Source of the DNA: an archaeon GW2011_AR15
Lineage (GTDB): Archaea; Nanobdellota; Nanobdellia; Woesearchaeales; GW2011-AR15
DNA: 64,000 nt
Reading direction: 5' to 3'
Assembly (NCBI GenBank): GCA_000830295.1
Contig: CP010425.1
Coordinates: forward strand, 35,927-99,926
Positions within the stretch are counted from its first letter, which is position 1. Every line of letters begins with the position of its first letter. The notes below the pieces were generated by a model. That model was not told the DNA's origin. It made no database searches and saw only the letters and a program-made list of their open reading frames with translations. Of this stretch, positions 1,978 through 39,315 are shown piece after piece. Position numbers and translations under genes: made by a program.

Positions 1978-2562
1978 CTATGGCATCCACTTGGTGTCTT
2001 CCTTTCCCTGCCTGTGGCTGGCTAAACGGGCTGCTGTGAAAAGATAGTCTGAAAGCCTGTTCATGTATTTCAGGATGTTCTTTTCTATCTCCTCTTCCCT
2101 CATCAGCCTTATTATTTGTCTCTCCGCCCTCCTGCATACGACCCTTGCCATGTGAAGCAGTGCGCTTTCTTCAGTGCCTCCTGCAAGTATAAAATTCTTC
2201 AGCACAGGAAGCTCTTCCTCATACATGTCAATAAGCCTTTCAAGCTTCTTGACCATATCCTCTGTCACCCTTGGGATCTTGTTTGCCATCGGGTTTCCGT
2301 CTATCTTTGACTGTGAAAGCACAGAGGGGTATGCGAGATTTGAGGAGATTGCGTGCAGGTCTTTCTGTATATCCATAAGATGCGATTTAAGGTCCTCCTC
2401 TTCCAGCTTTACTATGGCAAGGCCCAAGAATGCATTGGTCTCGTCGAGCACTCCGTATGCCTCTACTCTCGTTGTATCCTTCAGTGTCCTTGAGCCGTCG
2501 CAGAGTGAAGTCTCTCCTGTATCCCCTCTTTTAGTGTAGATTTTTATCTTCCTATCTGCCAA
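1978..2562 (-). CDS. PduO-type ATP:cob(I)alamin adenosyltransferase
   Basis: The N-terminus KIYTKRGDTGETSL and the helical-bundle C-terminus are typical of the PduO/MMAB family. Confidence 0.8.
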   Translation of the reverse strand: MADRKIKIYTKRGDTGETSLCDGSRTLKDTTRVEAYGVLDETNAFLGLAIVKLEEEDLKSHLMDIQKDLHAISSNLAYPSVLSQSKIDGNPMANKIPRVTEDMVKKLERLIDMYEEELPVLKNFILAGGTEESALLHMARVVCRRAERQIIRLMREEEIEKNILKYMNRLSDYLFTAARLASHRQGKEDTKWMP

Positions 2563-4573
2563 TGTTTATCACCTGCTCGCTCAGGCTGCCTTCCCTGTAA
2601 ACTGTTATGCCCCTGCAGCCGAGCTCATATGCCAGCAGGAAGGATTTCTTTATGTCCTCGGTGGTTGAGCTCTTTTGGAAATTTATTGTCTTTGAGATTG
2701 CATTGTCGACATGCTTCTGGAAAACTGACTGCATCTTTATGTGCCACTCAGGCTTTATGTCATAGGCAGTCACAAATATCTTCTTCATATCCTCGGGAAG
2801 CGCAAGGTTCTCAAGCGAGTTTGACTGGATTATCTTCCTTATTATATCCTCTGAGAAATCAATGCCGTGCTCTTTTGAGACTTCCTCAAGCACCTTGTTC
2901 ACATGCGTTATCTCTGTGTTCCCAAGGACTTTCCTTGTATATCCGAGCGCAAAGTTGGGCTCTATCCCCGGAGAGGTGTCTGCAAGTATGCTCCTTGCTC
3001 CTGTAGGCGCGATTGCTATCAGCGAGCAGTTCCTCAGCTTTGCCTTGTTGCAGAATACGCTTTGCTTCCACATCGGGAAGACTCCTTTTTCCTCTGCCAG
3101 CTTCTCTGACTCATTCCTGGCTGTTGATGATATGAACTTCATGACCTTCTCAGCAACCGCAAGCCCCTCCTCGGAATTATAGGGAATCCTGAGTTTGTAG
3201 AGCATATCCGCAAATCCAAGCACTCCCAGCCCTATTCTTCTGTTGCCCTTGGCCATGTCCTCTATCTTTTTCACAGGGAACCTGCCAAGGTCGACTATAT
3301 TGTCCAAAAATCTTACAGAAGACCTTATGACTTTCTCGAGGTTCTTCCATCTTATCTGCTTCCTCAGCACGAACCTTGAAAGGTTTATTGCGCCGAGGTT
3401 CCCTGCGTCATAAGGAAGCAGGAGCTGGTCTCCGCACGGGTCGGTTGTTTCTATCTTCCCCATATCTGGGAAAGGATTTCCTTCATTTATCCTGTCTATG
3501 AAAAGCACTCCGGGGTCCCCTGTCTTCCATGCCATCGTAACAATGAGGTGGAATATGTTGTTGGCATCAGCCATCTCAATTACTTCGCCGGTTGCAGGGT
3601 TCTTTATTGCATATTCCTTCCTTTTCTTGACAGCTTCCATGAACTCGTCTGTCATCTCGACAGATATATTGAAGTTCTTTATTTCCCCCCTCTCTTTCAT
3701 AGTTATGAATTCTATTATGTCAGGGTGTTCCACGCTGAGCGAGCCCATGTTGGCAGGCTTCCTGTTTCCCGGGACAACTGTAAGGTCAGATGCATGGTCA
3801 AACAATTTTATGAATGCTATGGGCCCTGATGAAAATCCTGCTGTTGTCTCGAGCACCTGTCCTTTCGGCCTCAGCCTTGAAAATGAGAATCCTGTGCCTC
3901 CCCCCAGCCTCTGTATAAGGGCTTTGTCATAGAGTGCCCTGAAAATCCCTTTCATGCTGTCCTCAACAGGAATTACAAAGCTGCTGTAGAGCATCCTGTT
4001 TGATGTGCCTGCATTCGCAAGTATCCTTCCTGAAGGTATAAATTCAAGCGAAGACAATATTGTAAAGAAATCTTCCTCTATCTCCTCTGTCTGCTTCTCG
4101 CTTTTCTTATATTTCTTTTCTACAGAAGCGACTGCTTTTGCTACTCTCCTGAACATCTCTTTCGGCGTTTCAATGATATTGCTTTTCCTGTCCCTTGCCA
4201 GGTATCTGGATTTTGCTATCAGCAGCCCGTTCACGCTCAGCCTTGAGTCATCCATCCTGCCGAGTATGCTCTGTTTTAGTTTTCTTAATTCAGTCCTTTT
4301 CTGCCTGTAGAGGATGAATGCCTTTGCCATCTCAGACTGGCCGTTCTCCATAAGGACTTTCTCAACAATGTCCTGCACTTCCTCCACAGAGATGATGTGG
4401 CCGTCCTGGGCTTTCTTTTCTATCTCAAGGATGACTTTTCCGGCAATCATATCAGGGAGCTCCTGATTATCTATATTTACAGCCAGCATCGTCTTCTCTA
4501 TTGCAGAAGAAACCTTGGCAGGGTCAAAGTCTGCTATTGTCCCGTCCCTTTTCCTTATTTTAGAAATCCCCAT
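2552..4573 (-). CDS. nrdJ: class II (adenosylcobalamin-dependent) ribonucleotide reductase NrdJ, with N-terminal ATP-cone
   Basis: The N-terminal roughly 100 aa form an ATP-cone (KIRKRDGTIADFDPAKV...). The RNR barrel carries the motifs VIPVEDSM and PCGDQLL. The protein is 673 aa. Confidence 0.8.
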   Translation of the reverse strand: MGISKIRKRDGTIADFDPAKVSSAIEKTMLAVNIDNQELPDMIAGKVILEIEKKAQDGHIISVEEVQDIVEKVLMENGQSEMAKAFILYRQKRTELRKLKQSILGRMDDSRLSVNGLLIAKSRYLARDRKSNIIETPKEMFRRVAKAVASVEKKYKKSEKQTEEIEEDFFTILSSLEFIPSGRILANAGTSNRMLYSSFVIPVEDSMKGIFRALYDKALIQRLGGGTGFSFSRLRPKGQVLETTAGFSSGPIAFIKLFDHASDLTVVPGNRKPANMGSLSVEHPDIIEFITMKERGEIKNFNISVEMTDEFMEAVKKRKEYAIKNPATGEVIEMADANNIFHLIVTMAWKTGDPGVLFIDRINEGNPFPDMGKIETTDPCGDQLLLPYDAGNLGAINLSRFVLRKQIRWKNLEKVIRSSVRFLDNIVDLGRFPVKKIEDMAKGNRRIGLGVLGFADMLYKLRIPYNSEEGLAVAEKVMKFISSTARNESEKLAEEKGVFPMWKQSVFCNKAKLRNCSLIAIAPTGARSILADTSPGIEPNFALGYTRKVLGNTEITHVNKVLEEVSKEHGIDFSEDIIRKIIQSNSLENLALPEDMKKIFVTAYDIKPEWHIKMQSVFQKHVDNAISKTINFQKSSTTEDIKKSFLLAYELGCRGITVYREGSLSEQVINIGR

Positions 4574-4627
4574 CTATCAGCCCCCGATATAATAAAGAAA
4601 TAATAGAAGTATTTTTAAAAGTTGTTA

Positions 4628-4649
4628 TTGAAAATAAAGGCATTTTCAA
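4628..4649. promoter_or_regulatory. perfect palindrome TTGAAAAT-N6-ATTTTCAA upstream of the first RNR gene
   Basis: An 8-bp inverted repeat with a 6-bp spacer lies about 55-75 nt upstream of the nrdJ start at 4573. Confidence 0.3.
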
Positions 4650-4652
4650 TTC

Positions 4653-4690
4653 CGAAACCCGAATCATAAAATTGGTAAGTTCGGGTTTCG
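4653..4690 (-). terminator. perfect 11-bp-stem hairpin directly after the stop of the second RNR gene, followed by a U-rich tract in the transcript
   Basis: cgaaacccgaa at 4653-4663 and ttcgggtttcg at 4680-4690 are exact reverse complements with a 16-nt loop. The stop TAG (reverse strand) sits at 4691-4693. Confidence 0.45.
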
Positions 4691-6739
4691 CTATACAGTG
4701 CATACGCTGAAGCCGCAGTCCGGACATAGCACACACCCTTCCTGCTTGACAAGAGGCGCATCGCATTCCGGGCAGTTGGTCATCTGCTTTTTGTCGAAAC
4801 TCACCATGATTTTGCCTTCCGGCACCTTGTCATGCGCGGTTTTTCCTGACGATTCCACAACTATCACCTGTTCAGGCATCCCTTCAACTTCCAGCTCTTC
4901 TGTCTGGACAACTATTGTTTCCTCGGTCTCGACAACAACAGGCTCCGCTGAGCTCCTGGCCTCCTTCTTGACCTCTTTTATGTTCAGCACCTGGTTGCCC
5001 CTGCTTCCGTCCCTGTAGACTGTGCATCCCTTGCAGCCTGTCTTCCAGGCAAGCATGTATCCTTTCTTGACGTCATCTATGGTTGCGCTTGTGGCGAAAT
5101 TGATCGTCTTTGAGACTGCGTTTGTCACATATTTCTGGAATGCTGCCTGCATAAGTATGTGCTCCTCAGCTGATATGTTGAAAGAAACCTCAAACACTTT
5201 TTTCACATCTTCAGGGACTTCATCCAGGCCGTCAAGCGTTCCCTGCTCTGCAATCTTTTTCATAAGCTCTTCAGTATAGAATCCCCTTTCCCTGGCAACC
5301 CTCTCGAAGTGCTTATTCACGTAAGTGAACTGCTCTTTTATTGAATGGCTGTTCTTTATGTAGGCAAGGGCAAAGTTGGGCTCGCATCCTCCGCTTGTAT
5401 CCCCGACCATGCTGAGCGTCCCTGTCGGAGCAATTGCTGTTATGGCGCAGTTCCTAACTCTCCTGCCCTCTTTTTCAAATTCGCTGCCTTTCCATGCGGG
5501 AAAAACTTCCCTTTCCCTTGCAAGCTCTTCTGACATCTTCCAGCCTTCCTCATCAATAACTCTCATGACTTCTGAAGCCACCATCCTGCCTTCCTCGCTT
5601 GAATAGGGAAGCCCGAGCTGGTAGAGAAGGTCTGCAAATCCCAATACTCCAAGACCTATGCGCCTTGTCTTCTTGGCCATCCTGGTTATCTTCTCTGTAG
5701 GGTATTCCCCCGCATCTATGACATTGTCCAGGAAATGGATTGCTGTCCTGGTTGTCTTCCTGAGCTTATTCCAGTCAATCTCAATCCTGCCGTTGACTTT
5801 CCTGACCATCCTGTCAAGGTTTATTGAGCCGAGGTTGCATACCTCATAATCAAGAAGCCATATTTCCGCACAGGGATTTGTAGCCTTGAATAAGCCAATG
5901 TGCTTGATTTTATTGTGCCTGTTTGCTGTGTCTATGAAAAGCACGCCCGGCTCCCCTGTCTTCCAGGCGTGATATGCAATTTTGTTAAAGAGCTCTTTTG
6001 CCCTTACTGTTCTGGCAACCTGCATTGTGTGCGGATCTATGAGATCATACTCACCGTCAGCCTCGACTGCTTTCATGAATTTGTCGTCAAGCATGACTGA
6101 GATATTGAAATTTGTAAGCTGGGTAAGGTCATCCTTTGCTGTTATGAAATGCTCAATGTCAGGGTGGCTGATGTGGAATGTCCCCATCTGGGCCCCTCTC
6201 CTGTTGCCCTGCATTATTGTGCTGCACATTACATCAAATACCCTCATGAATGACAGTGGGCCTGAAGCAATCCCGCTGCATCCTGAAACCCATGAGCCGC
6301 CCGGCCTGAGTGTTGAGAAGCAGTATCCGACCCCGCCCCCCCTTTTCTGGATAAGCGCTGCCTCCTTGACTGCCTGGAATATGCCTTCCATGCTGTCCTC
6401 AACAGGGATTACAAAGCAGTTCGCAAGATTCTTTACAGGTGTGCCTGCATTTGCGATTGTCCTCCCGCCAGGGATGAACTCAAGCTTTGTAAGCATGTCA
6501 AGAAATTCTTTTTCTGTCTTTTCAACTTCCCCGTCTGGCCTGTACACTGCGTCCGGGCCTGCAATCTCCTTTGCTATTCTTTCGAACATGTCCAGAGGGG
6601 TCTCTACGACAGTCCCGTCTGCGTCCCTTTTCAGGTATTTTGCAAATATTATCCTAAGCTGGTTCTCGTTCAGCCCCAGTTTTTCTTCTTCACTGATGCT
6701 TTCCATAAATGTTTTGTAATCCTGCATTTTTCCGCTCAC
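4691..6739 (-). CDS. nrdJ: class II ribonucleotide reductase NrdJ paralogue, C-terminal zinc ribbon, no ATP-cone
   Basis: Clear paralogue of the upstream RNR (FVIPVEDSMEGIF, NPCAEIWL). It ends in CPECDAPLVKQEGCVLCPDCGFSVC. The protein is 682 aa. Confidence 0.8.
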   Translation of the reverse strand: MSGKMQDYKTFMESISEEEKLGLNENQLRIIFAKYLKRDADGTVVETPLDMFERIAKEIAGPDAVYRPDGEVEKTEKEFLDMLTKLEFIPGGRTIANAGTPVKNLANCFVIPVEDSMEGIFQAVKEAALIQKRGGGVGYCFSTLRPGGSWVSGCSGIASGPLSFMRVFDVMCSTIMQGNRRGAQMGTFHISHPDIEHFITAKDDLTQLTNFNISVMLDDKFMKAVEADGEYDLIDPHTMQVARTVRAKELFNKIAYHAWKTGEPGVLFIDTANRHNKIKHIGLFKATNPCAEIWLLDYEVCNLGSINLDRMVRKVNGRIEIDWNKLRKTTRTAIHFLDNVIDAGEYPTEKITRMAKKTRRIGLGVLGFADLLYQLGLPYSSEEGRMVASEVMRVIDEEGWKMSEELAREREVFPAWKGSEFEKEGRRVRNCAITAIAPTGTLSMVGDTSGGCEPNFALAYIKNSHSIKEQFTYVNKHFERVARERGFYTEELMKKIAEQGTLDGLDEVPEDVKKVFEVSFNISAEEHILMQAAFQKYVTNAVSKTINFATSATIDDVKKGYMLAWKTGCKGCTVYRDGSRGNQVLNIKEVKKEARSSAEPVVVETEETIVVQTEELEVEGMPEQVIVVESSGKTAHDKVPEGKIMVSFDKKQMTNCPECDAPLVKQEGCVLCPDCGFSVCTV

Positions 6740-9859: not shown

Positions 9860-10822
9860 TTATTCATCCTGTATAAAAGTAACAATCTTGGTTATGTCCC
9901 CTATATGGGAGAGCATGTTAAAAATATCTATTGTCAGCCGGGTTGAGCTTGCGCTCTGGCTTTTCTTGTCATAATCCTCTATTTTTTTCATGAGCGCCTC
10001 GCGCTTTATAGATGCCTCAATCGCGTCCTTTGTGGAGTTTGAATAAAATGCATTCATGACTTCCACATAAAATGCGCTGATCTCGGTGAAAAGGCTGAGG
10101 AAATCCCCATGCTCTGATTTTTTGAGCCCTGATACTTCACTGGCAATGTATTTTATCCTGTCCCCGATTTTTTCAAGCATCATGTTGAGCTCCCAGTACT
10201 TCATTATATTCAGCCTTTCAAGGTTCAGGGATTCCTGGACATCCCTTCTCGCCTGGGCGGATTTGAGAATCTTTATAACTACATAGTGCAGCTTATTGAG
10301 TTCCCTGTCCCTGTCCCCGATTGCAAGCAGGAGTTCTTTGTCATCAACGGACTTTGTATCTGCAATCATAGACCTGACAATGTTATCCATCCGCCTCATG
10401 AGGACCTGGAGGTCAATGTCATGTATATTCAGGAAGCTTCTTGCGGTTATTTTTTTTGCTTCTTCCTCAACCACTTCAAGGGCTATGAACTCCGCTATCC
10501 TTTTCTTATAACTCTTTATTTTCTTCGGGAGCGTCTCTCCTTTCAGGACTATGTGCATGTAATCATTCAGGTAGGCGCAGGTAATCTCGCGGAAGATAAA
10601 ATCAAGTGGCTTGTTGTCCACATCAATAGTCTTTACCCTGTCGCTGATGCCCTTTTTCTTAATATCTGCCGTCAGCCTGAGATAATTATCAATTTCCTCA
10701 ATATATATCTCATCCCCGCCTTTCATAGAATTATCTTTTATCCAGCTTTTCGGCAGGGCGACTACCAGAGAAGAGAGCCCGCTTTTTACAAGTTTCCTGA
10801 TATACATGCTTTTGAAATACAT
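9860..10822 (-). CDS. phosphate uptake regulator PhoU-like with N-terminal AbrB/SpoVT-type domain
   Basis: A swapped-hairpin-like N-terminal domain (LVVALPKSWIKD) is followed by two PhoU-type helical repeats. The start is chosen at Met49 of the long ORF to avoid overlap. Confidence 0.6.
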   Translation of the reverse strand: MYFKSMYIRKLVKSGLSSLVVALPKSWIKDNSMKGGDEIYIEEIDNYLRLTADIKKKGISDRVKTIDVDNKPLDFIFREITCAYLNDYMHIVLKGETLPKKIKSYKKRIAEFIALEVVEEEAKKITARSFLNIHDIDLQVLMRRMDNIVRSMIADTKSVDDKELLLAIGDRDRELNKLHYVVIKILKSAQARRDVQESLNLERLNIMKYWELNMMLEKIGDRIKYIASEVSGLKKSEHGDFLSLFTEISAFYVEVMNAFYSNSTKDAIEASIKREALMKKIEDYDKKSQSASSTRLTIDIFNMLSHIGDITKIVTFIQDE

Positions 10823-10853: not shown

Positions 10854-11840
10854 CTAACTATAAAACCATTCTGGATGCACCCTGCCTTCGCCGGCATAAT
10901 CTTTTCTGAAGGACTCCAGCACATTGACTGCCCTTCCAAGCTTGTCTCCGTCAAGACAGAGCTCATCGCACAATAGCATTTTCCTGTAGCCTATATCATA
11001 TATCCATGAAAGCTCTGACAAGTCTGCAGCTGCAGGGACAGGATGATTGATTACAGAAAGGAGCATCCTTGAACCGATAACTGCTTCAGGGTCCTTTGCG
11101 ATAATCAGTTTCATGGCTTCCATCATATGATGCGGCTTGTCAATTTCCACATAAAGGTCTCCTCGGGCTGCGCAGAGATAGACGTTTTTCTGCTTCCTAT
11201 ACTCGTTCATTACATACTGGAGGCCTTTTTTGCTCTCAATCTTCAGCACAATTTCGGAATCCCCGACTATCTCCCTGAACTGGTCAACATCTTTCTGGGA
11301 TTCGACAAATGAAAGGTAATACCTGTCAAACCCCGCTGCTTTTGCCTTCTCTATTTTTTCTATCTCATAGTCAAGGAAAGTCGGACCTATCATATTATAG
11401 CTCGGATCTTTTATGTGCAGCGACTCTCCCCTATAGACCATGTACTGCGACCCGCCTTCAAAGACGAGCCTCTTCCCGCCTTCAATCCTGTTCAGCAGCG
11501 CATAATCCTCTCCTCCTTTAAAGAGGACCATCGTAGGCGTCCTGGCTTCAATAGGGTGGTTGAGTATAACTTCAAGATGGTCATTGTTCGGGACCACTTC
11601 CATCACCCTGAGCTGCCTTCCCTTTATATCAAAATAAAGAGGGACATGCCCGGCAAGCGCCTGGGCATCCTTCAGCTCTGTCCCTATCTCTGCTGCCTTG
11701 ATCATGGCTGTGTTCAGTCTTATCCCTGCAAGCCTCTCATCAGTTGCAAATTTCCGGAAATGGGGGAACGTGGGCCAGAGCGTCACAAGCAGCTCCAGGT
11801 CCCTCTCCTTCTTAAATAAGTGATTTAGATAATTCCTCAT
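10854..11840 (-). CDS. pyruvate-kinase-like TIM-barrel protein (no C-terminal regulatory domain)
   Basis: Pyruvate kinase (PK) barrel motifs are present: YFDIKGRQLR (compare LDTKGPEIR) and KIESKKGL...LCAARGDLYVEI (compare KIENQEG...MVARGDLGVEI). The protein is only 328 aa. Confidence 0.45.
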   Translation of the reverse strand: MRNYLNHLFKKERDLELLVTLWPTFPHFRKFATDERLAGIRLNTAMIKAAEIGTELKDAQALAGHVPLYFDIKGRQLRVMEVVPNNDHLEVILNHPIEARTPTMVLFKGGEDYALLNRIEGGKRLVFEGGSQYMVYRGESLHIKDPSYNMIGPTFLDYEIEKIEKAKAAGFDRYYLSFVESQKDVDQFREIVGDSEIVLKIESKKGLQYVMNEYRKQKNVYLCAARGDLYVEIDKPHHMMEAMKLIIAKDPEAVIGSRMLLSVINHPVPAAADLSELSWIYDIGYRKMLLCDELCLDGDKLGRAVNVLESFRKDYAGEGRVHPEWFYS

Positions 11841-12783
11841 TTCCGTCCCTCTGCATCACTGACTTTCCTGCATCCTTCCCCTTTATTTTGTCCGGAAGAA
11901 GATGGACATCGTGCAGCGACTTGTACACTGTCTTTACCTGGTTTGGCTTCTGCCTCCCTTCAAGCTCTCCCTTAAAGTAATCTACCCTGCCTGTTTCCTT
12001 TGCGAGGATGCCGAATATCACATCGACTACCCTGCCTGCTTCAGGAAGGTTGCAGATATGGTCTGCCCCAAGCAGCCCCTCCCACTGGGCATAAACTTTT
12101 TTGTCCTCGGAACTCATGGAATCTCCTGATGAGACATTATACGGCTTCCTGACAAGATATACAGAGTATTTGTTCTGGAGCTCGCTGAGCATCTGATTTG
12201 ATGAGAGCCTGCCCTCGATGTTCTGGCCGCAGATGTCTTTTGCCTGGTCTTTATCGACAAAATCGTAAAGCCCTTCATCCCCTATGAATATTAATATCGG
12301 GCTCACTGCATTTGGCATGCTGACATTCCTTGAATAATACATTGCCGCCAGGTCATAGCTTTCCATAATCTGCCCGCCCCCGCCGCCTTCAATCACAAGC
12401 TCTTTCAGCCTGTCCGCCAGCTCTGTGCCTTTTGTAAAAGGCCTTACCTGCAGAGGATAATTATCTGAGTATGCATCCCCTACTGCTGCAAAGCTTATCT
12501 CCATGTCCTTGCCGAGATATTCCTGGCCTTCGAGCTCAAGATACGGCAGTTTTGAAAATATTACTGCGGGCCACTCCCCCATCGAGCCTGTCACATCAGA
12601 TATTATCACCAGCGGGGTTGTGCTGCTGGTGCTTATGTTTTTCGGGAGCACGTCCTCCAAAGATTTGTTGCTCTTGAGGGCGCTGTCATAGCTCCTTCCG
12701 ACATGCACGTCGTATACTTTTCTTGCCTTGCCAAAATCATAACCCTTCCAAGGCCCCGGGTCAAAATCTCCTGCTTCGCTCAT
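11812..12783 (-). CDS. von Willebrand factor A (vWA) domain protein
   Basis: MIDAS-type motif in VIISDVTGSMGEW. Overall Rossmann-like vWA layout. Confidence 0.6.
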   Translation of the reverse strand: MSEAGDFDPGPWKGYDFGKARKVYDVHVGRSYDSALKSNKSLEDVLPKNISTSSTTPLVIISDVTGSMGEWPAVIFSKLPYLELEGQEYLGKDMEISFAAVGDAYSDNYPLQVRPFTKGTELADRLKELVIEGGGGGQIMESYDLAAMYYSRNVSMPNAVSPILIFIGDEGLYDFVDKDQAKDICGQNIEGRLSSNQMLSELQNKYSVYLVRKPYNVSSGDSMSSEDKKVYAQWEGLLGADHICNLPEAGRVVDVIFGILAKETGRVDYFKGELEGRQKPNQVKTVYKSLHDVHLLPDKIKGKDAGKSVMQRDGNEELSKSLI

Positions 12784-12795
12784 TTTTCCTACCTC

Positions 12796-13803
12796 CTAGA
12801 AGCCCGGTATGGGCTTCATGCCTGATCTCCTTCTTCCGAATTCTTTCTGCCTTATGTTTGAAATTGTTTCTGCCAGGTCCTCTTTTCTCCAGTTCGGCCT
12901 CTGGATGACGTCCCTGACAATAAGCTTCTTTATGAAATCGCAGAGTGAATCGGGAACATCAGCAGGGACTCTTCTCGTCAGCGGGTCGCCGCCAAGGGCA
13001 TACAGCATGGTCATCCCCAGGCTGTAAAAGTCTGACTCTGGGACAAGCGGCTTGCCTGATATCTGCTCAGGAGAGGCAAACATTGGTGTATATCCCTTGC
13101 TGGATGAATTCTCAGAAGGCCTTATCAGAGAAAGGCCGTAATCAACAAGCACAACCATGTGGGAGTCAGGCTGGACAATGAAGTTCTGGGGCTTCACATC
13201 GCCGTGCACAACACCGTTGTAATGAAGGTATTTCAGGGCATTAAGCGACCTTTCAGTTATCCATGCGACATTTTCAGGGTCCAGCTTCTTGTTTTTTTCT
13301 ATTATCCTGCCAAGAGTAGGGCCCGGGACATAGCTCATCACAAGCACAGGCGAGCCGTCCTCCAGTTTGAAAAAGTCCCTCATAGTAGGGATGCTGTAGT
13401 GCCTCAGGTCCCAGATGGATGCTGCCTCTTCCATCAGTATCCTCTCATCCTGCGGGGAAACATAATGGCCGTGCTTGAGGCATACGGGAGCGCCAAGCAT
13501 CACATGCTCCCCGTAATATGTTTTTCCAAATCCTCCGTCTGCAATTTCCTTTATCACCCTGTAATCTTTTATTATCTTGCCCTCTAGAGAAGACCTGTCC
13601 CTGTCATAATCTGCCCTGCTGGCAGGATTAAGCAGCGTGCCGCTTGCCTCATTGAGAAGCTGGGCAATATCGCCTTTCCCTTCATTTACATCAGGGTGGT
13701 AGAGCTTCATCAGGACTTTGTATGCTGCAGAAATAACCTCGGGCCTGGCTCTTGGGCTGACTTCCAGAACATCATAGTAGTTGACTTTTGTACCTGGTTT
13801 CAT
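12796..13803 (-). CDS. J-domain (DnaJ-like) fused to Hanks-type Ser/Thr protein kinase
   Basis: N-terminal J-domain signature YYDVLEVS...LYHPDVN. Kinase motifs GGFGKTY (the Gly-rich loop), a Lys in the VCLK context, HGDVKPQNF (the catalytic loop), and DYGLS plus SPE. The 13822-13824 codon is TTG, so the ATG at 13801-13803 is taken as start. Confidence 0.7.
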   Translation of the reverse strand: MKPGTKVNYYDVLEVSPRARPEVISAAYKVLMKLYHPDVNEGKGDIAQLLNEASGTLLNPASRADYDRDRSSLEGKIIKDYRVIKEIADGGFGKTYYGEHVMLGAPVCLKHGHYVSPQDERILMEEAASIWDLRHYSIPTMRDFFKLEDGSPVLVMSYVPGPTLGRIIEKNKKLDPENVAWITERSLNALKYLHYNGVVHGDVKPQNFIVQPDSHMVVLVDYGLSLIRPSENSSSKGYTPMFASPEQISGKPLVPESDFYSLGMTMLYALGGDPLTRRVPADVPDSLCDFIKKLIVRDVIQRPNWRKEDLAETISNIRQKEFGRRRSGMKPIPGF

Positions 13804-13912
13804 AGCATAATAGATGGAAAGCAAAAAATATATATTTAACGTACTTATTTAAAGTTTAATATGTTTTGTATATACTTAAGGTTTATTAAAAGAAAGCAAA
13901 ATCCCGGATATC

Positions 13913-14356
13913 CTACATCTTTTCCTTTGCAAAGAAATATCTTGCCCTTTGCAGGCTTTCTCCTTTAATCTGGGAAATGTAAAATCCCTGCTCCAGGAAG
14001 CAAAGCATAGGATGATAGTCAAGAAAAAAATCACTTACCTTCATCTTATCGCCAGAGTCCTTCCACATAACCCTTGCTACCGGCTTCTGGAGCCCGTCCC
14101 CATATTCAGCTCTTTGCGCAGTCGGCGAAAGCATGTATGCTATTGTATAAACTCCCGGGTTGGAGTCCTGCTCTTCCCAGAGAGTCTCCTCCTGCCCTGA
14201 TCCTGTCCCATAATAAAGATGAAACACCGGATTTTCTGAAAAATATTTCTGCAGCTCCACAAGAATCCCATGTTCCGGGACTTCCCATTCCCTGAGTGCA
14301 GGGATCGAAAGCATAATTTCTTCCAGTTTCTTGTCCATTGCTTTTTTTTCTGGCAT
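13913..14356 (-). CDS. hypothetical protein
   Basis: 147-aa ORF with no recognisable motifs. Confidence 0.35.
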   Translation of the reverse strand: MPEKKAMDKKLEEIMLSIPALREWEVPEHGILVELQKYFSENPVFHLYYGTGSGQEETLWEEQDSNPGVYTIAYMLSPTAQRAEYGDGLQKPVARVMWKDSGDKMKVSDFFLDYHPMLCFLEQGFYISQIKGESLQRARYFFAKEKM

Positions 14357-18230: not shown

Positions 18231-18794
18231 CTAAATGACCGGAGCAAGCAGATCATAGAGTGCGCTGAGCAGGGGAAGATAGATCACGAGGTTGAAGAAC
18301 ATCTGGGAAGTCTGGTGGGTAAAGCTCTCGAAAGGCGATATCCCGACCATCGTGAACCAGGGGAAGGCGATTACTGTCCTTATTATTATGGCAGCAAAGT
18401 AAGCGGTCGCAAAGGGCATGCCGAAGGCGCTGTGCATTGTCCCTGTAAGGAAGCCTGCCACTCCTGCAAGTATTATGGTGGAGACATAGGTTATTGAGAC
18501 AAAGCTGTTCATCACATAAGAGAACCCGCCTACTGCAAGGCCGTAGAATAACCCCACTATAGGGCCGAATATGTATCCTATAAAGCATGACATTGCCGTG
18601 TTGCTCTCAATCGAGATATGCGGCACCATCTTTGCATACCTTACAGTTATGAAAGTTATGGGGGCAAAGACGATGACAAGGAGTATTCCTGTGACATATC
18701 TTGACCAGATAAGCGCCACAAGAAGGATGACAAGGGCAATAAGAACGTTTCTGAGATTTAGGTATTTCCTAAAATCAATCTTCTTTTTGCTCAT
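18231..18794 (-). CDS. small polytopic membrane protein, paralogue 1 of a four-member local family
   Basis: Basic N-terminal tail, about 5 TM helices, shared motif VPHISIES...GYIFGPIVGLFYGLAVGG. Confidence 0.6.
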   Translation of the reverse strand: MSKKKIDFRKYLNLRNVLIALVILLVALIWSRYVTGILLVIVFAPITFITVRYAKMVPHISIESNTAMSCFIGYIFGPIVGLFYGLAVGGFSYVMNSFVSITYVSTIILAGVAGFLTGTMHSAFGMPFATAYFAAIIIRTVIAFPWFTMVGISPFESFTHQTSQMFFNLVIYLPLLSALYDLLAPVI

Positions 18795-18944
18795 TAAAAA
18801 ACAGAGTAAAATGCCTTCCTTTTTAAATATTCTGATAAGGGAGTTTATTCCCTCAGAAACTTTTAAATAGTGTAAACATCTTTCCGATTTTATGAAGGGT
18901 TGCTTTTATTGTAAATTCTCTGCTTCTGGGGGCGGCTGTGCTGG

Positions 18945-19517
18945 ATGACTAAGAAAAAGAAGATATATTTTGACAGCATAAAGAAGCATCTTACCCTGAG
19001 GAATTTCCTGATTGCGGGCATAGCCCTTATCATCTACCTTATGTTTGCAGACCTGGCAAAGGCAATATTATTTACAGCCCTCTTTGTCCCGCTCGGCACA
19101 GTCTCCATCAAGGTAACCAGGCTGCTGCCGCAGGCAAACATCGAGGTCATAACGCCTTGCAGCTTTTTCCTCGGCTACCTCTATGGCTGGCCCGTGGGCG
19201 TCTTTTACGGCGTAATCCTGGGCGCATACATGTGGTCAACCGCATACAGCATTTCCCAGTTCGTCGTCATGTCGCTGTTCCTGAACGGCGTTTCCGCATT
19301 TATGGGCCATTACTTCAGCACCTCTTTCGGATGGAGCTTTACATTCGCATATCTTCTGGCAATGGGCATAAGAAACATACTATATTTCACAATAGGCCTT
19401 CTTATAGGCGGCAATCCTGTGGAAAACACCATGCATACAATCACTGCCACCCTCACCAACATGCTGATTTTCCCTACTTTCATGATAATGCTGTATAACA
19501 TAGCAACAATAATCTAA
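18945..19517 (+). CDS. small polytopic membrane protein, paralogue 2
   Basis: Shares the core RLLPQANIEVIT...LGYLYGWPVGVFYGVILGAY with paralogues 1, 3 and 4. Confidence 0.6.
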   Translation: MTKKKKIYFDSIKKHLTLRNFLIAGIALIIYLMFADLAKAILFTALFVPLGTVSIKVTRLLPQANIEVITPCSFFLGYLYGWPVGVFYGVILGAYMWSTAYSISQFVVMSLFLNGVSAFMGHYFSTSFGWSFTFAYLLAMGIRNILYFTIGLLIGGNPVENTMHTITATLTNMLIFPTFMIMLYNIATII

Positions 19518-19527
19518 GGGAGCATGG

Positions 19528-20079
19528 ATGAAAAAGACAACAATCACTGAATTCATAAAGCAGAACGGGAAGATGCTTCTCCTTGCTGTTATCTCACTTA
19601 TAATTTTCAACAAGTATATCATAATAATCGGCGTCTTCATACTCTTCGGCATCCTGGGCATAATAAGCCTCCAGGTGACAAGGCTTATCCCCCATGTCTC
19701 AATAGAGACAATCTCGGCATCATCAATACTATTAGGCTATCTGTGGGGATGGAAGCTTGGGCTTGCATTCGGAGTCATTTTCGGGCTCTACGGCTACATG
19801 AAAATCTCGCTGATAAAGCTGAAGACAATTATTGCAGCAATGCTGATGGGCATCTGCGGCGTCATCGCTGCGATATTCGCCTCTCTCGGCTACTCTTTTG
19901 CCTCTGCATACCTGCTGACTTTCCTTATCAAGATGGGGCTCAACCAGATTATATTCCCCCTTGTGGAATCAAACATGACAGAAAACTTCATCCACTCTTT
20001 CGGAGACCCTATTTTCAACATGCTCATAACATTCCAATTAATGCAACTAATATATACTATACTCACTTTCATAGCATGA
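19528..20079 (+). CDS. small polytopic membrane protein, paralogue 3
   Basis: Shares the core RLIPHVSIETIS...LGYLWGWKLGLAFGVIFGLY with the other paralogues. Confidence 0.6.
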   Translation: MKKTTITEFIKQNGKMLLLAVISLIIFNKYIIIIGVFILFGILGIISLQVTRLIPHVSIETISASSILLGYLWGWKLGLAFGVIFGLYGYMKISLIKLKTIIAAMLMGICGVIAAIFASLGYSFASAYLLTFLIKMGLNQIIFPLVESNMTENFIHSFGDPIFNMLITFQLMQLIYTILTFIA

Positions 20080-39189: not shown

Positions 39190-39220
39190 TCAAGCACACA
39201 ATTAAAAAAAGTGGGCCTGA
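39190..39220. repeat. 31-bp direct repeat copy 2 (overlaps the genuine 3' end of tRNA-Ile)
   Basis: tcaagcacacaattaaaaaaagtgggcctga. It is 55 bp from copy 1. Confidence 0.7.
39204..39210 (-). terminator. oligo-T tract directly after tRNA-Ile
   Basis: T7 on the transcribed strand begins 2 nt after the discriminator base. Confidence 0.5.
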
Positions 39221-39315
39221 GCGGATTTGAACCGCCGACCAATGGCTTTCTTAGATAACATGTACCAATGGCGGTCATATAAGACCATCGCTCCACCAGG
39301 CTAAGCTACAGGCCC
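39212..39315 (-). tRNA. tRNA-Ile with anticodon UAU, containing a 30-nt canonical BHB intron (plus-strand 39248-39277) after position 37
   Basis: Folded by hand. Acceptor GGGCCTG/CAGGCCC; D-stem GCTT/GAGC; anticodon stem ATGGT/GCCAT; loop CTTATA|intron|A; T-arm GGCGG-TTCAAAT-CCGCT. Loop nt 32-35 (CTTA) pair perfectly with intron TAAG, giving 3-nt bulges at both splice sites. Confidence 0.65.

What the first reader, a model, noticed from the sequence alone, without database searches (positions are those of the whole stretch)
11812..13803. J-domain fused to a Hanks-type kinase, adjacent to a vWA protein
The kinase gene begins with a complete DnaJ J-domain. That is an unusual fusion, which would recruit Hsp70 to a kinase or its substrates. 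It sits 12 bp downstream of a vWA/MIDAS protein. vWA-kinase pairings recur in prokaryotic signalling and conflict systems. A PK-like barrel protein and a PhoU-AbrB regulator continue the same strand.
Basis: partly seen in the sequence, partly recalled or inferred. Interest (0 to 1): 0.5.

Follow-up and report, generated by a model that had tools for sequence, protein, structure and literature searches.

The report
J-domain kinase, vWA, mini-pyruvate-kinase operon
The kinase carrying a chaperone-recruiting J-domain is real, but it is one gene of a three-gene unit (kinase, metal-dependent vWA adaptor, shortened pyruvate-kinase-like enzyme) conserved in many ultra-small archaea and bacteria and one giant phage, with no function on record.

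Summary

The PK-like gene (10854-11840) is an obligate third member. The order kinase, vWA, PK-like is kept in 41 of 41 assessable related loci. These include DPANN archaea, proven CPR bacteria and a 485-kb phage.

Deeper relatives (30-45% identity) have the same triad without a J-domain, sometimes with PP2C. The J-domain is therefore a later add-on. HPD is degenerate or the domain absent in 15 of 41 species-level loci, while the kinase motifs never vary. No Hsp70 gene lies in the window or near any locus.

Bxz1-like mycobacteriophages carry a J-like (pseudo)kinase plus this vWA next to PurA. Protists fuse this vWA to U-box.

Best reading: a TerY-P-like phospho-switch controlling a PEP-dependent phosphotransferase that lacks the C domain, with optional DnaK coupling. 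The function is inferred, not shown. I rate it a new variant of a known kind, interest about 0.6.

The parts
13828..13839 (-). TATA-like element (TTAAATATATAT), 25-36 nt upstream of the kinase ATG. Putative archaeal promoter of the three-gene operon. Inferred only.
   Evidence: Sequence read. The AT-rich 109-nt spacer follows the upstream 147-aa ORF. No transcript data.
12796..13803 (-). J-domain / Hanks-type Ser/Thr kinase gene (335 aa plus stop).
   Evidence: Pfam DnaJ 2.5e-12 and Pkinase 3.9e-31. There are 897 homologous clusters, and the top 120 are 57-99% identical with the same architecture. Public gene calls match.
13603..13782 (-). J-domain (residues 8-67). HPD is at residues 36-38, window 13690-13698.
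   Evidence: The Pfam match covers the whole model. HPD located. The J-fold core (Y10, L13, A19, A27, L31, A53, L57, Y66, D67) is conserved even in members that have lost HPD.
12904..13563 (-). Kinase catalytic domain (about residues 81-300). It is a non-RD kinase (HGD). K110, E126, D202, K204, N207, D221-Y-G223 and E246 are all present.
   Evidence: These residues are kept in 164-165 of 165 family sequences.
12799..12903 (-). Conserved C-terminal tail of the kinase, ending in the motif FGRxxSxMKPIPG. It is a candidate docking or autophosphorylation segment (inferred).
   Evidence: F322, R324 and S327 are nearly invariant. An FGR(R)xS-like motif is also present in J-less orthologues.
12784..12795 (-). 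12-nt spacer with the Shine-Dalgarno-like GGAGGT between the kinase stop and the vWA start. It suggests translational coupling.
   Evidence: Sequence read.
11812..12783 (-). Cytoplasmic vWA/MIDAS protein gene (323 aa plus stop). It has a conserved N-terminal MSExGDYxPGxW segment, a vWA core, a C-terminal three-helix region, and a disordered tail with the motif GKSVM and a terminal KSL[LI].
12583..12597 (-). MIDAS motif D63-V-T65-G-S67.
   Evidence: D63 and S67 in 162 of 162 sequences, T65 in 161 of 162. Also kept in distant, phage and eukaryotic relatives.
10854..11840 (-). Short pyruvate-kinase-like gene (328 aa plus stop). It has the A (TIM barrel) domain and a shortened B domain but no C-terminal regulatory domain. 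It overlaps the vWA gene by 29 nt.
   Evidence: Pfam PK 3.7e-10. AlphaFold2 pLDDT 89.4. Foldseek finds pyruvate kinases at E 4e-18, TM about 0.7. Alignment to E. coli PykF shows R32, N34, D66, K68, R73, K220, E222 and D246 equivalents invariant and T278 replaced by an invariant Ser. The K+ site S36 is Ala and K156 is Leu or Ile.

Best explanation
The J-domain kinase and the vWA protein are the first two genes of a conserved three-gene operon. The third gene is a pyruvate-kinase homologue that lacks the allosteric C domain.

Proposed mechanism. The shown and inferred steps are marked in the For line.
- The soluble, constitutively competent (non-RD) Ser/Thr kinase and the MIDAS-bearing vWA protein form a phosphorylation-dependent switch of the TerY-P / ArnB-ArnC kind.
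- The kinase phosphorylates a conserved disordered tail. The best candidate site is S308 in the GKSVM motif of the vWA protein. A PP2C phosphatase, encoded next door in some genomes, reverses this.
- This changes what the MIDAS site binds, and so controls the assembly or activity of the mini-pyruvate kinase.
- That enzyme keeps the PEP/Mg2+ catalytic residues but has lost the usual allosteric domain. It probably transfers phosphate from PEP to a nucleoside diphosphate, giving ATP or NTP regeneration.
- The J-domain is a later N-terminal addition in the CPR/DPANN/huge-phage branch. Where HPD is intact, as in this window, it can couple the switch to DnaK, for example to take the complex apart or remodel it. 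It is not essential to the module.
For: SHOWN
1. Domain content and fold of all three proteins.
2. Strict linkage and gene order in 41 of 41 assessable loci out of 44, with similar family sizes of 897, 1086 and 914 clusters. No other neighbouring gene is conserved.
3. Presence in archaea. The window has Spt5, L7Ae, S12, S7 and diphthamide synthase.
4. Presence in true bacteria: EF-Tu and uL16 (L038), DnaB/MraZ/RsmH (L031), EF-P (L013), LigA (L044), PNPase (L032) and an ECF sigma factor (L039).
5. Kinase catalytic residues and the MIDAS are invariant, and the PK catalytic residues are invariant.
6. Deeper triads with J-less kinases that are 40-45% identical across residues 78-330, including the tail. 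The vWA is 34-39% and the PK-like 30-33% identical. vWA plus PK-like is also adjacent in L068-L071.
7. PP2C lies next to the module in L015, L029, L037, L044 and L061.
8. The vWA tail (residues 297-323) is disordered in the model, yet GKSVM and the terminal KSL[LI] are conserved across subfamilies.
9. There is a precedent for a Hanks-type kinase acting on a vWA protein. ArnC phosphorylates the C-terminal domain of ArnB (PMC6509490). The TerY-P definition is in PMC10542128.

INFERRED
- The substrate of the kinase.
- The ligand of the MIDAS.
- The reaction of the PK-like enzyme.
- Any role of DnaK.

CONTEXT
In 123 complete Woesearchaeales genomes, enolase (122) and PGK (123) are near-universal, but pyruvate kinase K00873 is called in only 39 (preprint 10.64898/2026.05.13.725050). 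This leaves room for an unrecognised PEP-consuming enzyme.
Against: - No experiment or expression data exist.
- No physical interaction was modelled.
- The PK-like protein differs from true pyruvate kinases. The K+ site Ser is Ala, the B-domain Lys that contacts ATP (PykF K156) is Leu or Ile, and the B domain is shortened. Its acceptor may therefore not be ADP.
- It scores 45.9 bits against an NCBIfam pyruvate-kinase cut-off of 306.
- In phages the same vWA type sits next to PurA rather than PK. In protists it is fused to U-box, SAM or NUDIX. The vWA may therefore be a general adaptor rather than a PK regulator.
- The module is also on phage genomes. That fits a conflict or host-takeover role as well as a housekeeping one.
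Confidence: 0.45

Rival explanations
1. It is a TerY-P-like conflict or anti-phage module, or the phage's counter-weapon. The vWA/kinase pair senses an invader-derived signal, and the PK-like enzyme acts as effector or nucleotide-pool manipulator. The module moves horizontally between CPR bacteria, DPANN archaea and phages.
For: - The architecture resembles TerY-P triads. Some of these are stand-alone defence systems (PMC10542128).
- PP2C is linked in some loci.
- Flanking genes differ in nearly every genome.
- The distribution crosses domains, with the archaeal clade nested among bacterial ones in an NJ tree.
- A complete copy lies in a 485-kb phage.
- Related J-like (pseudo)kinase plus vWA pairs occur in 201 Mycobacterium phage records. 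The vWA alone occurs in Vibrio and Rhizobium phages.
- The kinase domain matches the PADLOC kinase models mad6 and PD-T4-6.
Against: - The vWA and PK-like proteins match no PADLOC model, and the kinase hits reflect generic kinase-domain similarity.
- The kinase has no zinc ribbon or OB fold.
- There is no nuclease, pore or other toxic effector.
- All three proteins are 45-75% identical across deep lineages. That is unusual for fast-evolving defence genes.
- The module is single-copy and sits among housekeeping genes in very small genomes.
- Only 1 of 50,697 phage records carries the PK-like and J-kinase genes.
Confidence: 0.2
2. The essential job is chaperone targeting: the J-domain brings Hsp70 to the kinase or its substrates (clients held by the vWA protein), and the other genes are accessory.
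For: - The J-domain is complete with HPD in the window.
- HPD is intact in 129 of 165 family sequences.
- HPD is also intact in the huge-phage copy.
- Many DPANN genomes encode bacterial DnaK-DnaJ-GrpE (PMC8204110).
- A J-like segment with HPD is also found on the mycobacteriophage homologue.
Against: - Orthologous triads work without any J-domain.
- The J-domain was lost secondarily in L024 and L026 and is absent in L042.
- HPD is degenerate in 12 further species-level loci, including proven bacteria (L031, L039).
- The J-fold core stays conserved when HPD is lost. This points to an Hsp70-independent structural role.
- No Hsp70 or GrpE gene was found by motif in the 64-kb window or within 10 kb of any of 53 loci.
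Confidence: 0.12
3. It is a nucleotide-supply module of viral origin. The PK-like enzyme (or PurA in phages) boosts ATP, NTP or adenine-nucleotide pools, and the vWA/kinase pair tunes it. CPR and DPANN cells, which salvage nucleotides, domesticated it, for example as a substitute NDP kinase.
For: - The partner enzymes are all nucleotide-related. They are PK-like in cells and adenylosuccinate synthetase directly after the vWA gene in two unrelated phage groups.
- Other neighbours are NAD kinase (L070), NAD-salvage genes (L062), and NUDIX, CoaE and ADP-ribosylglycohydrolase (L058).
- One eukaryotic relative is fused to NUDIX.
- From my own knowledge, pyruvate kinase is known to phosphorylate other NDPs and to replace Ndk in mycoplasmas.
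Against: - The evidence is entirely contextual.
- The PurA adjacency could be coincidental synteny within phage lineages.
- Only one phage in the collection has the PK-like gene.
- No test of ndk presence or absence was possible.
Confidence: 0.15

Closest known systems
TerY-P triad (TerY-like vWA + PP2C phosphatase + Ser/Thr kinase). Anantharaman et al. 2012, as summarised in PMC10542128.
   Same: A cytoplasmic vWA/MIDAS protein is encoded next to a Hanks-type kinase. PP2C is adjacent in some members (L015, L029, L037, L044, L061). TerY-P is a predicted metal- and phosphorylation-dependent switch, which is how I read this module.
   Different: - The kinase has no C-terminal zinc ribbon or OB fold. 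Instead it has an N-terminal J-domain and an FGRxxS tail.
- The vWA is not recognised by Pfam VWA models or PADLOC models.
- PP2C is absent from the window and from most loci.
- A pyruvate-kinase-like enzyme is an obligate third gene.
ArnA/ArnB/ArnC archaellum regulatory module of Sulfolobus acidocaldarius (PMC6509490).
   Different: - There is no FHA partner and no beta-sandwich domain.
- The genes here are one operon with a metabolic-type enzyme.
- The distribution is CPR, DPANN and phage, not Crenarchaeota.
Pyruvate kinase (for example E. coli PykF, PDB 1pky).
   Same: It has the same A-domain barrel and an inserted B domain. The PEP, Mg2+ and phosphate-binding residues are conserved.
   Different: - It has no C-terminal allosteric and tetramerisation domain.
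- The B domain is shortened.
- The K+ site Ser is Ala, and the ATP-contacting Lys is Leu or Ile.
- Identity is about 18%, and it scores far below the NCBIfam cut-off.
vWA adaptor plus chaperone ATPase pairs (MoxR-type: CbbQ/CbbO, NorQ/NorD, RavA/ViaA) and the eukaryotic kinase/J-domain protein GAK (auxilin-2). Both are recalled from my own knowledge and were not tested here.
   Different: - The chaperone here would be Hsp70 acting through a J-domain, not an AAA+ protein.
- The domain order and partners differ from GAK.
- There is no sequence relationship beyond the shared domains.
Bxz1-like mycobacteriophage gp262/gp263 (phrog_3043 'kinase' and phrog_2971 'unknown function').
   Same: gp262 is homologous to the J-kinase across J helix II, HPD and the kinase core (hhalign probability 98.6%, E 1e-15). 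gp263 is homologous to the vWA protein with the MIDAS kept (probability 99.7%, E 2e-26). The two genes are adjacent and in the same order.
   Different: - The phage kinase has HGA in place of HGD, T in place of the catalytic-loop K, and DWC in place of DFG. It is probably a pseudokinase.
- The nearby enzyme gene, one small ORF further on, is adenylosuccinate synthetase, not PK-like.
- The DnaJ match is sub-threshold (E 0.0015).

Membership tests
J-domain proteins (Hsp40/DnaJ class) | J-domain recognised by the PF00226 model above its gathering score. | tested here: met
   47.1 bits against a cut-off of 27.8, E 2.5e-12, model positions 1-63 of 63.
J-domain proteins (Hsp40/DnaJ class) | HPD tripeptide between helices II and III. 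| tested here: met
   Present in the window protein (residues 36-38). Across the family it is intact in 129 of 165 sequences, and degenerate or absent in 15 of 41 species-level loci.
J-domain proteins (Hsp40/DnaJ class) | A cognate Hsp70 in the same genome whose ATPase the J-domain stimulates. | not testable with these tools
   No Hsp70 motif in the 64-kb window or in 53 related loci. The rest of the genome could not be read. The literature says many DPANN have DnaK-DnaJ-GrpE (PMC8204110).
Hanks-type (eukaryotic-like) Ser/Thr protein kinases | Pkinase fold with the catalytic Lys, alphaC Glu, HxD Asp, Asn, DFG Asp and APE Glu. | tested here: met
   PF00069 at 108.8 bits. K110, E126, D202, N207, D221 and E246 are kept in 164-165 of 165 sequences. 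It is a non-RD type (HGD).
vWA / MIDAS domain proteins | Recognition by curated vWA sequence models. | tested here: not met
   No Pfam or NCBIfam hit for the window protein. VWA_CoxE matches only weakly, in 3 of 35 relatives. No PDB sequence hit.
vWA / MIDAS domain proteins | vWA (Rossmann-like alpha/beta) fold. | tested here: met
vWA / MIDAS domain proteins | MIDAS residues DxSxS ... T ... D. | tested here: met
   D63-x-T65-x-S67, S/T142 (157 of 162) and D169 (162 of 162). The spatial clustering of these residues was not inspected.
TerY-P triad | vWA, Ser/Thr kinase and PP2C phosphatase encoded together. | tested here: not met
   There is no PP2C among the window genes scanned around the operon. 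PP2C is adjacent in only 4 of 44 family loci, plus L061.
TerY-P triad | Kinase fused at its C-terminus to a zinc ribbon or OB fold, and recognition by TerY/defence models. | tested here: not met
   The C-terminus is a 35-residue FGRxxS tail with no extra domain. PADLOC finds nothing for the vWA and only generic kinase models for the kinase.
Pyruvate kinase (EC 2.7.1.40) | A-domain barrel with the catalytic Arg, Asn, Asp, Lys, Glu, Asp and Thr residues. | tested here: met
   PF00224 at 39.8 bits against a cut-off of 30. Foldseek E 4e-18 to pyruvate kinases. Equivalents of PykF R32, N34, D66, K68, R73, K220, E222 and D246 are invariant, and T278 is an invariant Ser.
Pyruvate kinase (EC 2.7.1.40) | Full A+B+C architecture and the equivalog score. 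| tested here: not met
   328 aa with no C domain and a shortened B domain. TIGR01064 scores 45.9 bits against a cut-off of 306.4.
Pyruvate kinase (EC 2.7.1.40) | Catalyses PEP + ADP -> pyruvate + ATP. | not testable with these tools
   This needs an enzyme assay.

The most novel reading that the evidence does not exclude
An ancient, mobile three-part device (Ser/Thr kinase, MIDAS vWA adaptor, mini-pyruvate kinase) is a previously unrecognised regulator or generator of ATP and NTP from PEP in the two radiations of ultra-small symbionts, CPR bacteria and DPANN archaea. It would have been exchanged between them and with huge phages. It could be the 'missing' pyruvate kinase or NDP kinase of these cells. 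The J-domain branch adds Hsp70 control. Cousins of the same vWA were recruited by mycobacteriophages (with a J-like pseudokinase and PurA) and by protists (fused to a U-box ubiquitin ligase).
Probability: 0.25. Interest if true: 0.8.

Novelty: new variant of a known kind. Interest (0 to 1): 0.62.

Why it matters
CPR bacteria and DPANN archaea make up a large share of microbial diversity, yet they have tiny genomes full of unannotated genes. A three-gene operon kept at 45-75% identity across both groups is likely to do something central to their way of life. It also occurs on a 485-kb phage.

Suppose the short PK-like enzyme is active. It would then bear directly on an open gap in their predicted energy metabolism: PEP is made in nearly all Woesearchaeales, but a pyruvate kinase is called in only about a third. 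It would also show allosteric control replaced by a kinase/vWA (and Hsp70) switch.

The vWA protein defines a large family with no Pfam model, 1532 clusters at 50% identity. It links prokaryotic, phage (phrog_2971) and eukaryotic (U-box-fused) proteins.

Tried and rejected
1. Pfam, NCBIfam, PADLOC and a PDB sequence-profile search gave nothing. The only PDB hits were spurious TAF5 matches at E 0.3. Structure prediction settled the question instead.
2. Looking for DnaK. Hsp70 and GrpE motif scans of the six-frame window and of the ORFs of the 53 loci from the genome scan were negative. Whole genomes could not be read, so the genome-level check was not possible. I rely on PMC8204110 for DPANN in general.
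3. Rosetta-stone fusions inside the trio family. Longer vWA and PK-like variants carry no extra Pfam domain.
4. Looking for a fourth conserved gene. Clustering all neighbours found none. PhoU/AbrB is in 7 loci, an aminoacyl-tRNA synthetase in 6 and PP2C in 4.
5. Literature. Three searches that together named a J-domain/kinase fusion or a pyruvate kinase/vWA pairing, each combined with DPANN, archaea or CPR, returned no paper.
6. The afdb50 fold library was unavailable. The BFVD viral fold search gave only generic vWA hits.
7. PhoU/AbrB as part of the system. Rejected on conservation and on its own promoter-like element.
8. The small ORFs upstream of J-less kinases (L061 116 aa, L062 160 aa) as stand-ins for the J-domain. 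They have no Pfam domain worth noting and no similarity to each other.
9. The NJ trees are distance-based with no support values. I treat the CPR-to-DPANN direction of transfer as tentative.


Full report
WHAT IS IN THE WINDOW

The window comes from a DPANN archaeon.
- The flanking genes are Spt5, L7Ae/L30e, S12, S7 and diphthamide synthase.
- Identical proteins are on record as hypothetical proteins of Candidatus Woesearchaeota MAGs, on contigs of up to 1.16 Mb.

Four genes follow one another on the minus strand.

1. 12796-13803, 335 aa. This is the J-domain kinase.
   - Pfam DnaJ at E 2.5e-12 covers the whole model. Pkinase is at E 3.9e-31.
   - HPD is residues 36-38.
   - The ATG at 13803, not the upstream TTG, is the start used by public gene calls and by the homologues.
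2. 11812-12783, 323 aa.
   - It starts 12 nt after the kinase stop, behind a GGAGGT.
3. 10854-11840, 328 aa.
   - It overlaps gene 2 by 29 nt and matches the pyruvate kinase barrel (E 3.7e-10).
4. 9860-10807, 315 aa.
   - It has a PhoU domain and an AbrB-like N-terminus.
   - A TATA-like TTATATATATAC sits between genes 3 and 4, so gene 4 probably has its own promoter.
   - A similar element, TTAAATATATAT, lies 25-36 nt upstream of the kinase ATG.

So the coordinates and the domain calls of the finding hold. One correction: the kinase gene is upstream of the vWA gene, not downstream of it.

IS GENE 2 A vWA PROTEIN?

Sequence models say nothing.
- It has no Pfam, NCBIfam or PADLOC hit, and no PDB relative by profile search.
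- VWA_CoxE matches weakly in only 3 of 35 relatives.

Structure prediction settles it.
- An AlphaFold2 model built on 35 homologues is confident (pLDDT 81.8, pTM 0.83).
- In 162 family sequences D63 and S67 are invariant and T65 is in 161 of 162. S or T at 142 is in 157 of 162. D169-E170 is invariant. That is a complete MIDAS.
- The protein has no signal peptide or membrane segment visible in its sequence.
- After the vWA core come three helices and a disordered tail (297-323). The tail nevertheless keeps a GKSVM motif, with S308 present in every sequence that has a tail, and a terminal KSL[LI].

GENE 3 IS A TRUNCATED PYRUVATE-KINASE HOMOLOGUE

- The model (pLDDT 89.4) matches pyruvate kinases over its full length (Foldseek E 4e-18, TM about 0.7, about 18% identity).
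- Aligned to E. coli PykF, the equivalents of R32, N34, D66, K68, R73, K220, E222 and D246 are invariant in the family. T278 is an invariant Ser.
- Three positions differ. The K+ site S36 is Ala, T67 is Ile or Val, and the B-domain K156 is Leu or Ile.
- The B domain is shortened and the C-terminal allosteric domain is missing.
- It passes the Pfam threshold but is far below the NCBIfam pyruvate-kinase cut-off (45.9 bits against 306).

I therefore call it PK-like: probably an active PEP/Mg2+-dependent phosphotransferase, but not a demonstrated pyruvate kinase.

THE UNIT IS THREE GENES, AND IT IS STRONGLY CONSERVED

- The kinase has 897 homologous clusters. The top 120 are all about 335 aa, all DnaJ plus Pkinase, and 57-99% identical.
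- The vWA has 1086 homologous clusters and the PK-like protein has 914.
- A scan of one genome per GTDB species returned 44 family loci.
- In all 41 loci whose contig extends far enough, the three genes are together. In 39 the order is kinase, vWA, PK-like on one strand. In L029 and L044 the vWA/PK-like pair is divergent from the kinase.
- Clustering every neighbouring ORF found no fourth conserved gene. PhoU/AbrB is nearby in 7 loci, an aminoacyl-tRNA synthetase in 6 and a PP2C phosphatase in 4.

The pair always co-occurs.

THE MODULE CROSSES THE DOMAIN BOUNDARY

Many record titles name CPR/Patescibacteria, so I checked the flanks.
- L038 has EF-Tu and bacterial uL16 in an S10-type operon.
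- L031 has DnaB, MraZ and RsmH.
- L013 has EF-P.
- L044 has NAD-dependent LigA.
- L032 has PNPase.
- L039 has an ECF sigma factor.

All of these score above the NCBIfam cut-offs. These are real bacteria, and their trio proteins are 43-65% identical to the archaeal ones.

An NJ tree of the concatenated trio, rooted on J-less relatives (described below), gives this order from the root:
1. the J-less L042 at the base;
2. a huge phage;
3. a grade of bacterial lineages;
4. the remaining archaeal loci as one nested clade.

This suggests one transfer from CPR bacteria into DPANN archaea. That would fit the many bacterial systems reported in Woesearchaeota (PMC8204110). The tree has no support values, so the direction is tentative.

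THE J-DOMAIN IS AN ADD-ON, NOT THE CORE

Across 165 family sequences the kinase residues K110, E126, H-G-D200-202, K204, N207, D221, G223 and E246 are present in 164 or 165. HPD is intact in only 129.

Among the 41 species-level loci that can be judged:
- 12 have a degenerate tripeptide. Examples are RPE, SNS, SKD and GPD in archaea, and SSE and RFA in the proven bacteria L031 and L039.
- 3 have no J-domain at all: L024, L026 and L042.

Where HPD is lost, the J-fold core residues stay conserved. The domain therefore also seems to have a structural role that does not need Hsp70.

No Hsp70 or GrpE signature is present in the window or within 10 kb of the module in any of the 53 loci from the genome scan. 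I could not read whole genomes. Whether this organism has DnaK therefore remains open, although many DPANN do (PMC8204110).

A WIDER FAMILY CHANGES THE PICTURE

An exhaustive profile search with the vWA alignment found 1532 clusters at 50% identity, 320 of them at E <= 1e-30. Members that are 30-40% identical fall into two kinds.

(a) Prokaryote-type proteins with the same C-terminal tail. Every one I could look up lies beside a PK-like gene:

| Locus | Gene order |
|---|---|
| L061 | PP2C, small ORF, kinase (261 aa), vWA, vWA paralogue, PK-like |
| L062 | kinase (254 aa), vWA, PK-like, next to NAD-salvage genes |
| L068 | vWA, PK-like |
| L069 | vWA, small ORF, PK-like |
| L070 | NAD kinase, vWA, PK-like |
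| L071 | kinase, vWA, PK-like |

The kinases of L061 and L062, and of the phage-like contig L058, have no J-domain. They are 40-45% identical to residues 78-330 of the window protein, including the FGR(R)xS tail. The next-best ordinary Hanks kinases are about 30% identical.

So the ancestral unit is kinase plus vWA plus PK-like. The vWA/PK-like pair is the most persistent part. The J-domain was fused on in one branch.

(b) Eukaryotic proteins.
- They start with MGG, which looks like a myristoylation signal (my inference).
- The same vWA is fused to U-box, SAM, NUDIX or a RanBP zinc finger.
- One is an MMETSP transcript.
- Another lies among genes for a mitochondrial carrier, a La protein and ribosomal protein L35Ae.

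PHAGES

- The 485-kb uncultured phage LR745208.1 carries the complete trio in the same order, with an intact J-domain and HPD. Identity to the window proteins is 42%, 41% and 48%. It is the only one of 50,697 phage records with the PK-like gene.
- The vWA type (phrog_2971, unknown function) is also in 201 Mycobacterium phage records (Bxz1-like) and in some Vibrio and Rhizobium phages.
- In phage ArcherS7 the annotated 'ser-thr kinase' gp262 sits directly upstream of the vWA homologue gp263. A PurA homologue follows one small gene later.
- gp262 aligns to the J-kinase family from J helix II and HPD through the kinase core (hhalign probability 98.6%, E 1e-15). Its catalytic HGD is HGA and its DFG is DWC, so it looks like a pseudokinase. 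Pfam's DnaJ match is sub-threshold.
- gp263 aligns at probability 99.7% with the MIDAS kept.
- In Vibrio phage Va1 the vWA gene is followed directly by adenylosuccinate synthase.

HOW IT MOST LIKELY WORKS

The closest described systems are two.
- The TerY-P triad is vWA plus PP2C plus Ser/Thr kinase. It is read as a metal- and phosphorylation-dependent switch (PMC10542128).
- In the Sulfolobus ArnA/ArnB/ArnC module, a Hanks-type kinase phosphorylates the C-terminal region of a MIDAS-bearing vWA protein and so changes its partnerships (PMC6509490).

By analogy, and given the strict linkage, I propose the following.
1. The kinase, with PP2C where present, sets the phosphorylation state of a conserved disordered tail. 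The vWA GKSVM motif is the best candidate.
2. The MIDAS site then binds or releases a partner.
3. The controlled partner is the mini-pyruvate kinase, which has lost its own allosteric domain.
4. The J-domain lets DnaK act on this complex in the branch that has it.

Only the parts list, the conservation and the residue patterns are shown. The substrate, the ligand, the reaction and the chaperone step are inferred. I put this at 0.45.

The nucleotide-related company the vWA keeps suggests that the output is nucleotide or energy supply. That company is PK-like, PurA, NAD kinase, NAD salvage and NUDIX.

A recent survey of 123 complete Woesearchaeales genomes found enolase in 122 and PGK in 123, but pyruvate kinase (K00873) in only 39. 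It also found puzzling 'pyruvate kinase' calls in Pacearchaeales, which lack glycolysis (preprint 10.64898/2026.05.13.725050). The short PK-like protein could account for both observations. That is a testable idea, not a result.

RIVALS

- **Defence or counter-defence role (0.2).** This is kept alive by the TerY-P resemblance, the phage copies, the variable flanks and the cross-domain spread. Against it are the absence of PADLOC matches for two of the three proteins, the lack of an effector, and 45-75% identity across deep lineages.
- **Nucleotide-supply module of viral origin (0.15).** This overlaps with my main model.
The J-less orthologues and the repeated HPD loss make this unlikely.

NOVELTY AND VERDICT

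- Three full-text searches that together named a J-domain/kinase fusion or a pyruvate kinase/vWA pairing, each combined with DPANN, archaea or CPR, found no paper. The library is incomplete, so this is weak evidence of novelty.
- The vWA/kinase switch is a known kind. Three things appear to be new:
  - the obligate PK-like partner;
  - the J-domain fusion;
  - the distribution across CPR, DPANN, huge phage and mycobacteriophage, with eukaryotic U-box cousins.
- I rate it a new variant of a known kind, with interest 0.62.

Noticed in passing
window 39212-39315 (-): Rfam finds a 104-nt tRNA (54.3 bits), presumably carrying an intron. ARAGORN in its bacterial mode found no tRNA in the whole window.
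   Followed up: partly
window 13913-14356 (-): A 147-aa ORF lies directly upstream of the operon. It has no Pfam, NCBIfam or PADLOC hit and no homologue in any of the 44 related loci. It is an orphan gene of this lineage.
   Followed up: partly
window 18231-20079 (both strands): There are three neighbouring genes for similar small multi-pass membrane proteins (187, 190 and 183 aa). Each starts with a lysine-rich N-terminus. They look like a tandem paralogue family of unknown function.
   Followed up: no
window about 2500-6739 (-): Two adjacent ribonucleotide reductase large-subunit-like genes (678 and 673 aa; one has an ATP-cone) are followed by a Cob(I)alamin adenosyltransferase-like gene and thymidylate synthase (gene calls).
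   Followed up: no
window 9860-10807 (-): The PhoU-domain protein has an AbrB/SpoVT-like N-terminus. It is next to the trio only in the closest Woesearchaeota relatives (7 of 44 loci). In those it is usually upstream and on the opposite strand. It appears to have its own TATA-like promoter element.
   Followed up: yes
L066 (Mycobacterium phage ArcherS7) 3613-5798: The annotated 'ser-thr kinase' gp262 of Bxz1-like phages has an unannotated J-like N-terminal segment with HPD. Its catalytic motifs are mutated (HGA, DWC). It is paired with the vWA homologue gp263 (phrog_2971). PurA follows one small gene later.
   Followed up: partly
P0488, P0496, P0507, P0481 (U-box); P0489 (NUDIX); P0490 (SAM); P0500 (RanBP zinc finger); locus L059: Eukaryotic (protist) proteins that start with MGG carry the same vWA type, at 29-35% identity. 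It is fused to U-box E3-ligase or other domains. L059 has a eukaryotic gene context: a mitochondrial carrier, a La protein and L35Ae.
   Followed up: partly
L033 8405-11502; L061 2554-4795: Some genomes carry tandem duplicates of the vWA gene inside the module. L033 has two paralogues (P0179 and P0209). L061 has two that are 59% identical to each other.
   Followed up: partly
L009 4110-5777; L010 9912-11096: In a clade labelled 'Spirochaetales' that groups with the archaeal loci, the vWA ORF is extended to 555 and 394 aa. The extension has no Pfam domain.
   Followed up: partly
L062 1039-6540; L070 96-1136; L058: NAD-related genes recur beside distant members of the module. They are NrtR-like NUDIX, NAPRTase, nicotinamidase and NAD synthase in L062; NAD kinase in L070; and ADP-ribosylglycohydrolase, NUDIX and CoaE-like genes in the phage-like L058.
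   Followed up: no
record titles of L002, L006, L009, L010, L012, L013, L017, L020, L041, L043: Several public MAG labels (Methanosarcinales, Spirochaetales, Gammaproteobacteria, Bdellovibrionota, Binatia) do not fit the gene content or the position of the locus in the tree. They are probably mis-assigned CPR or DPANN bins.
   Followed up: partly
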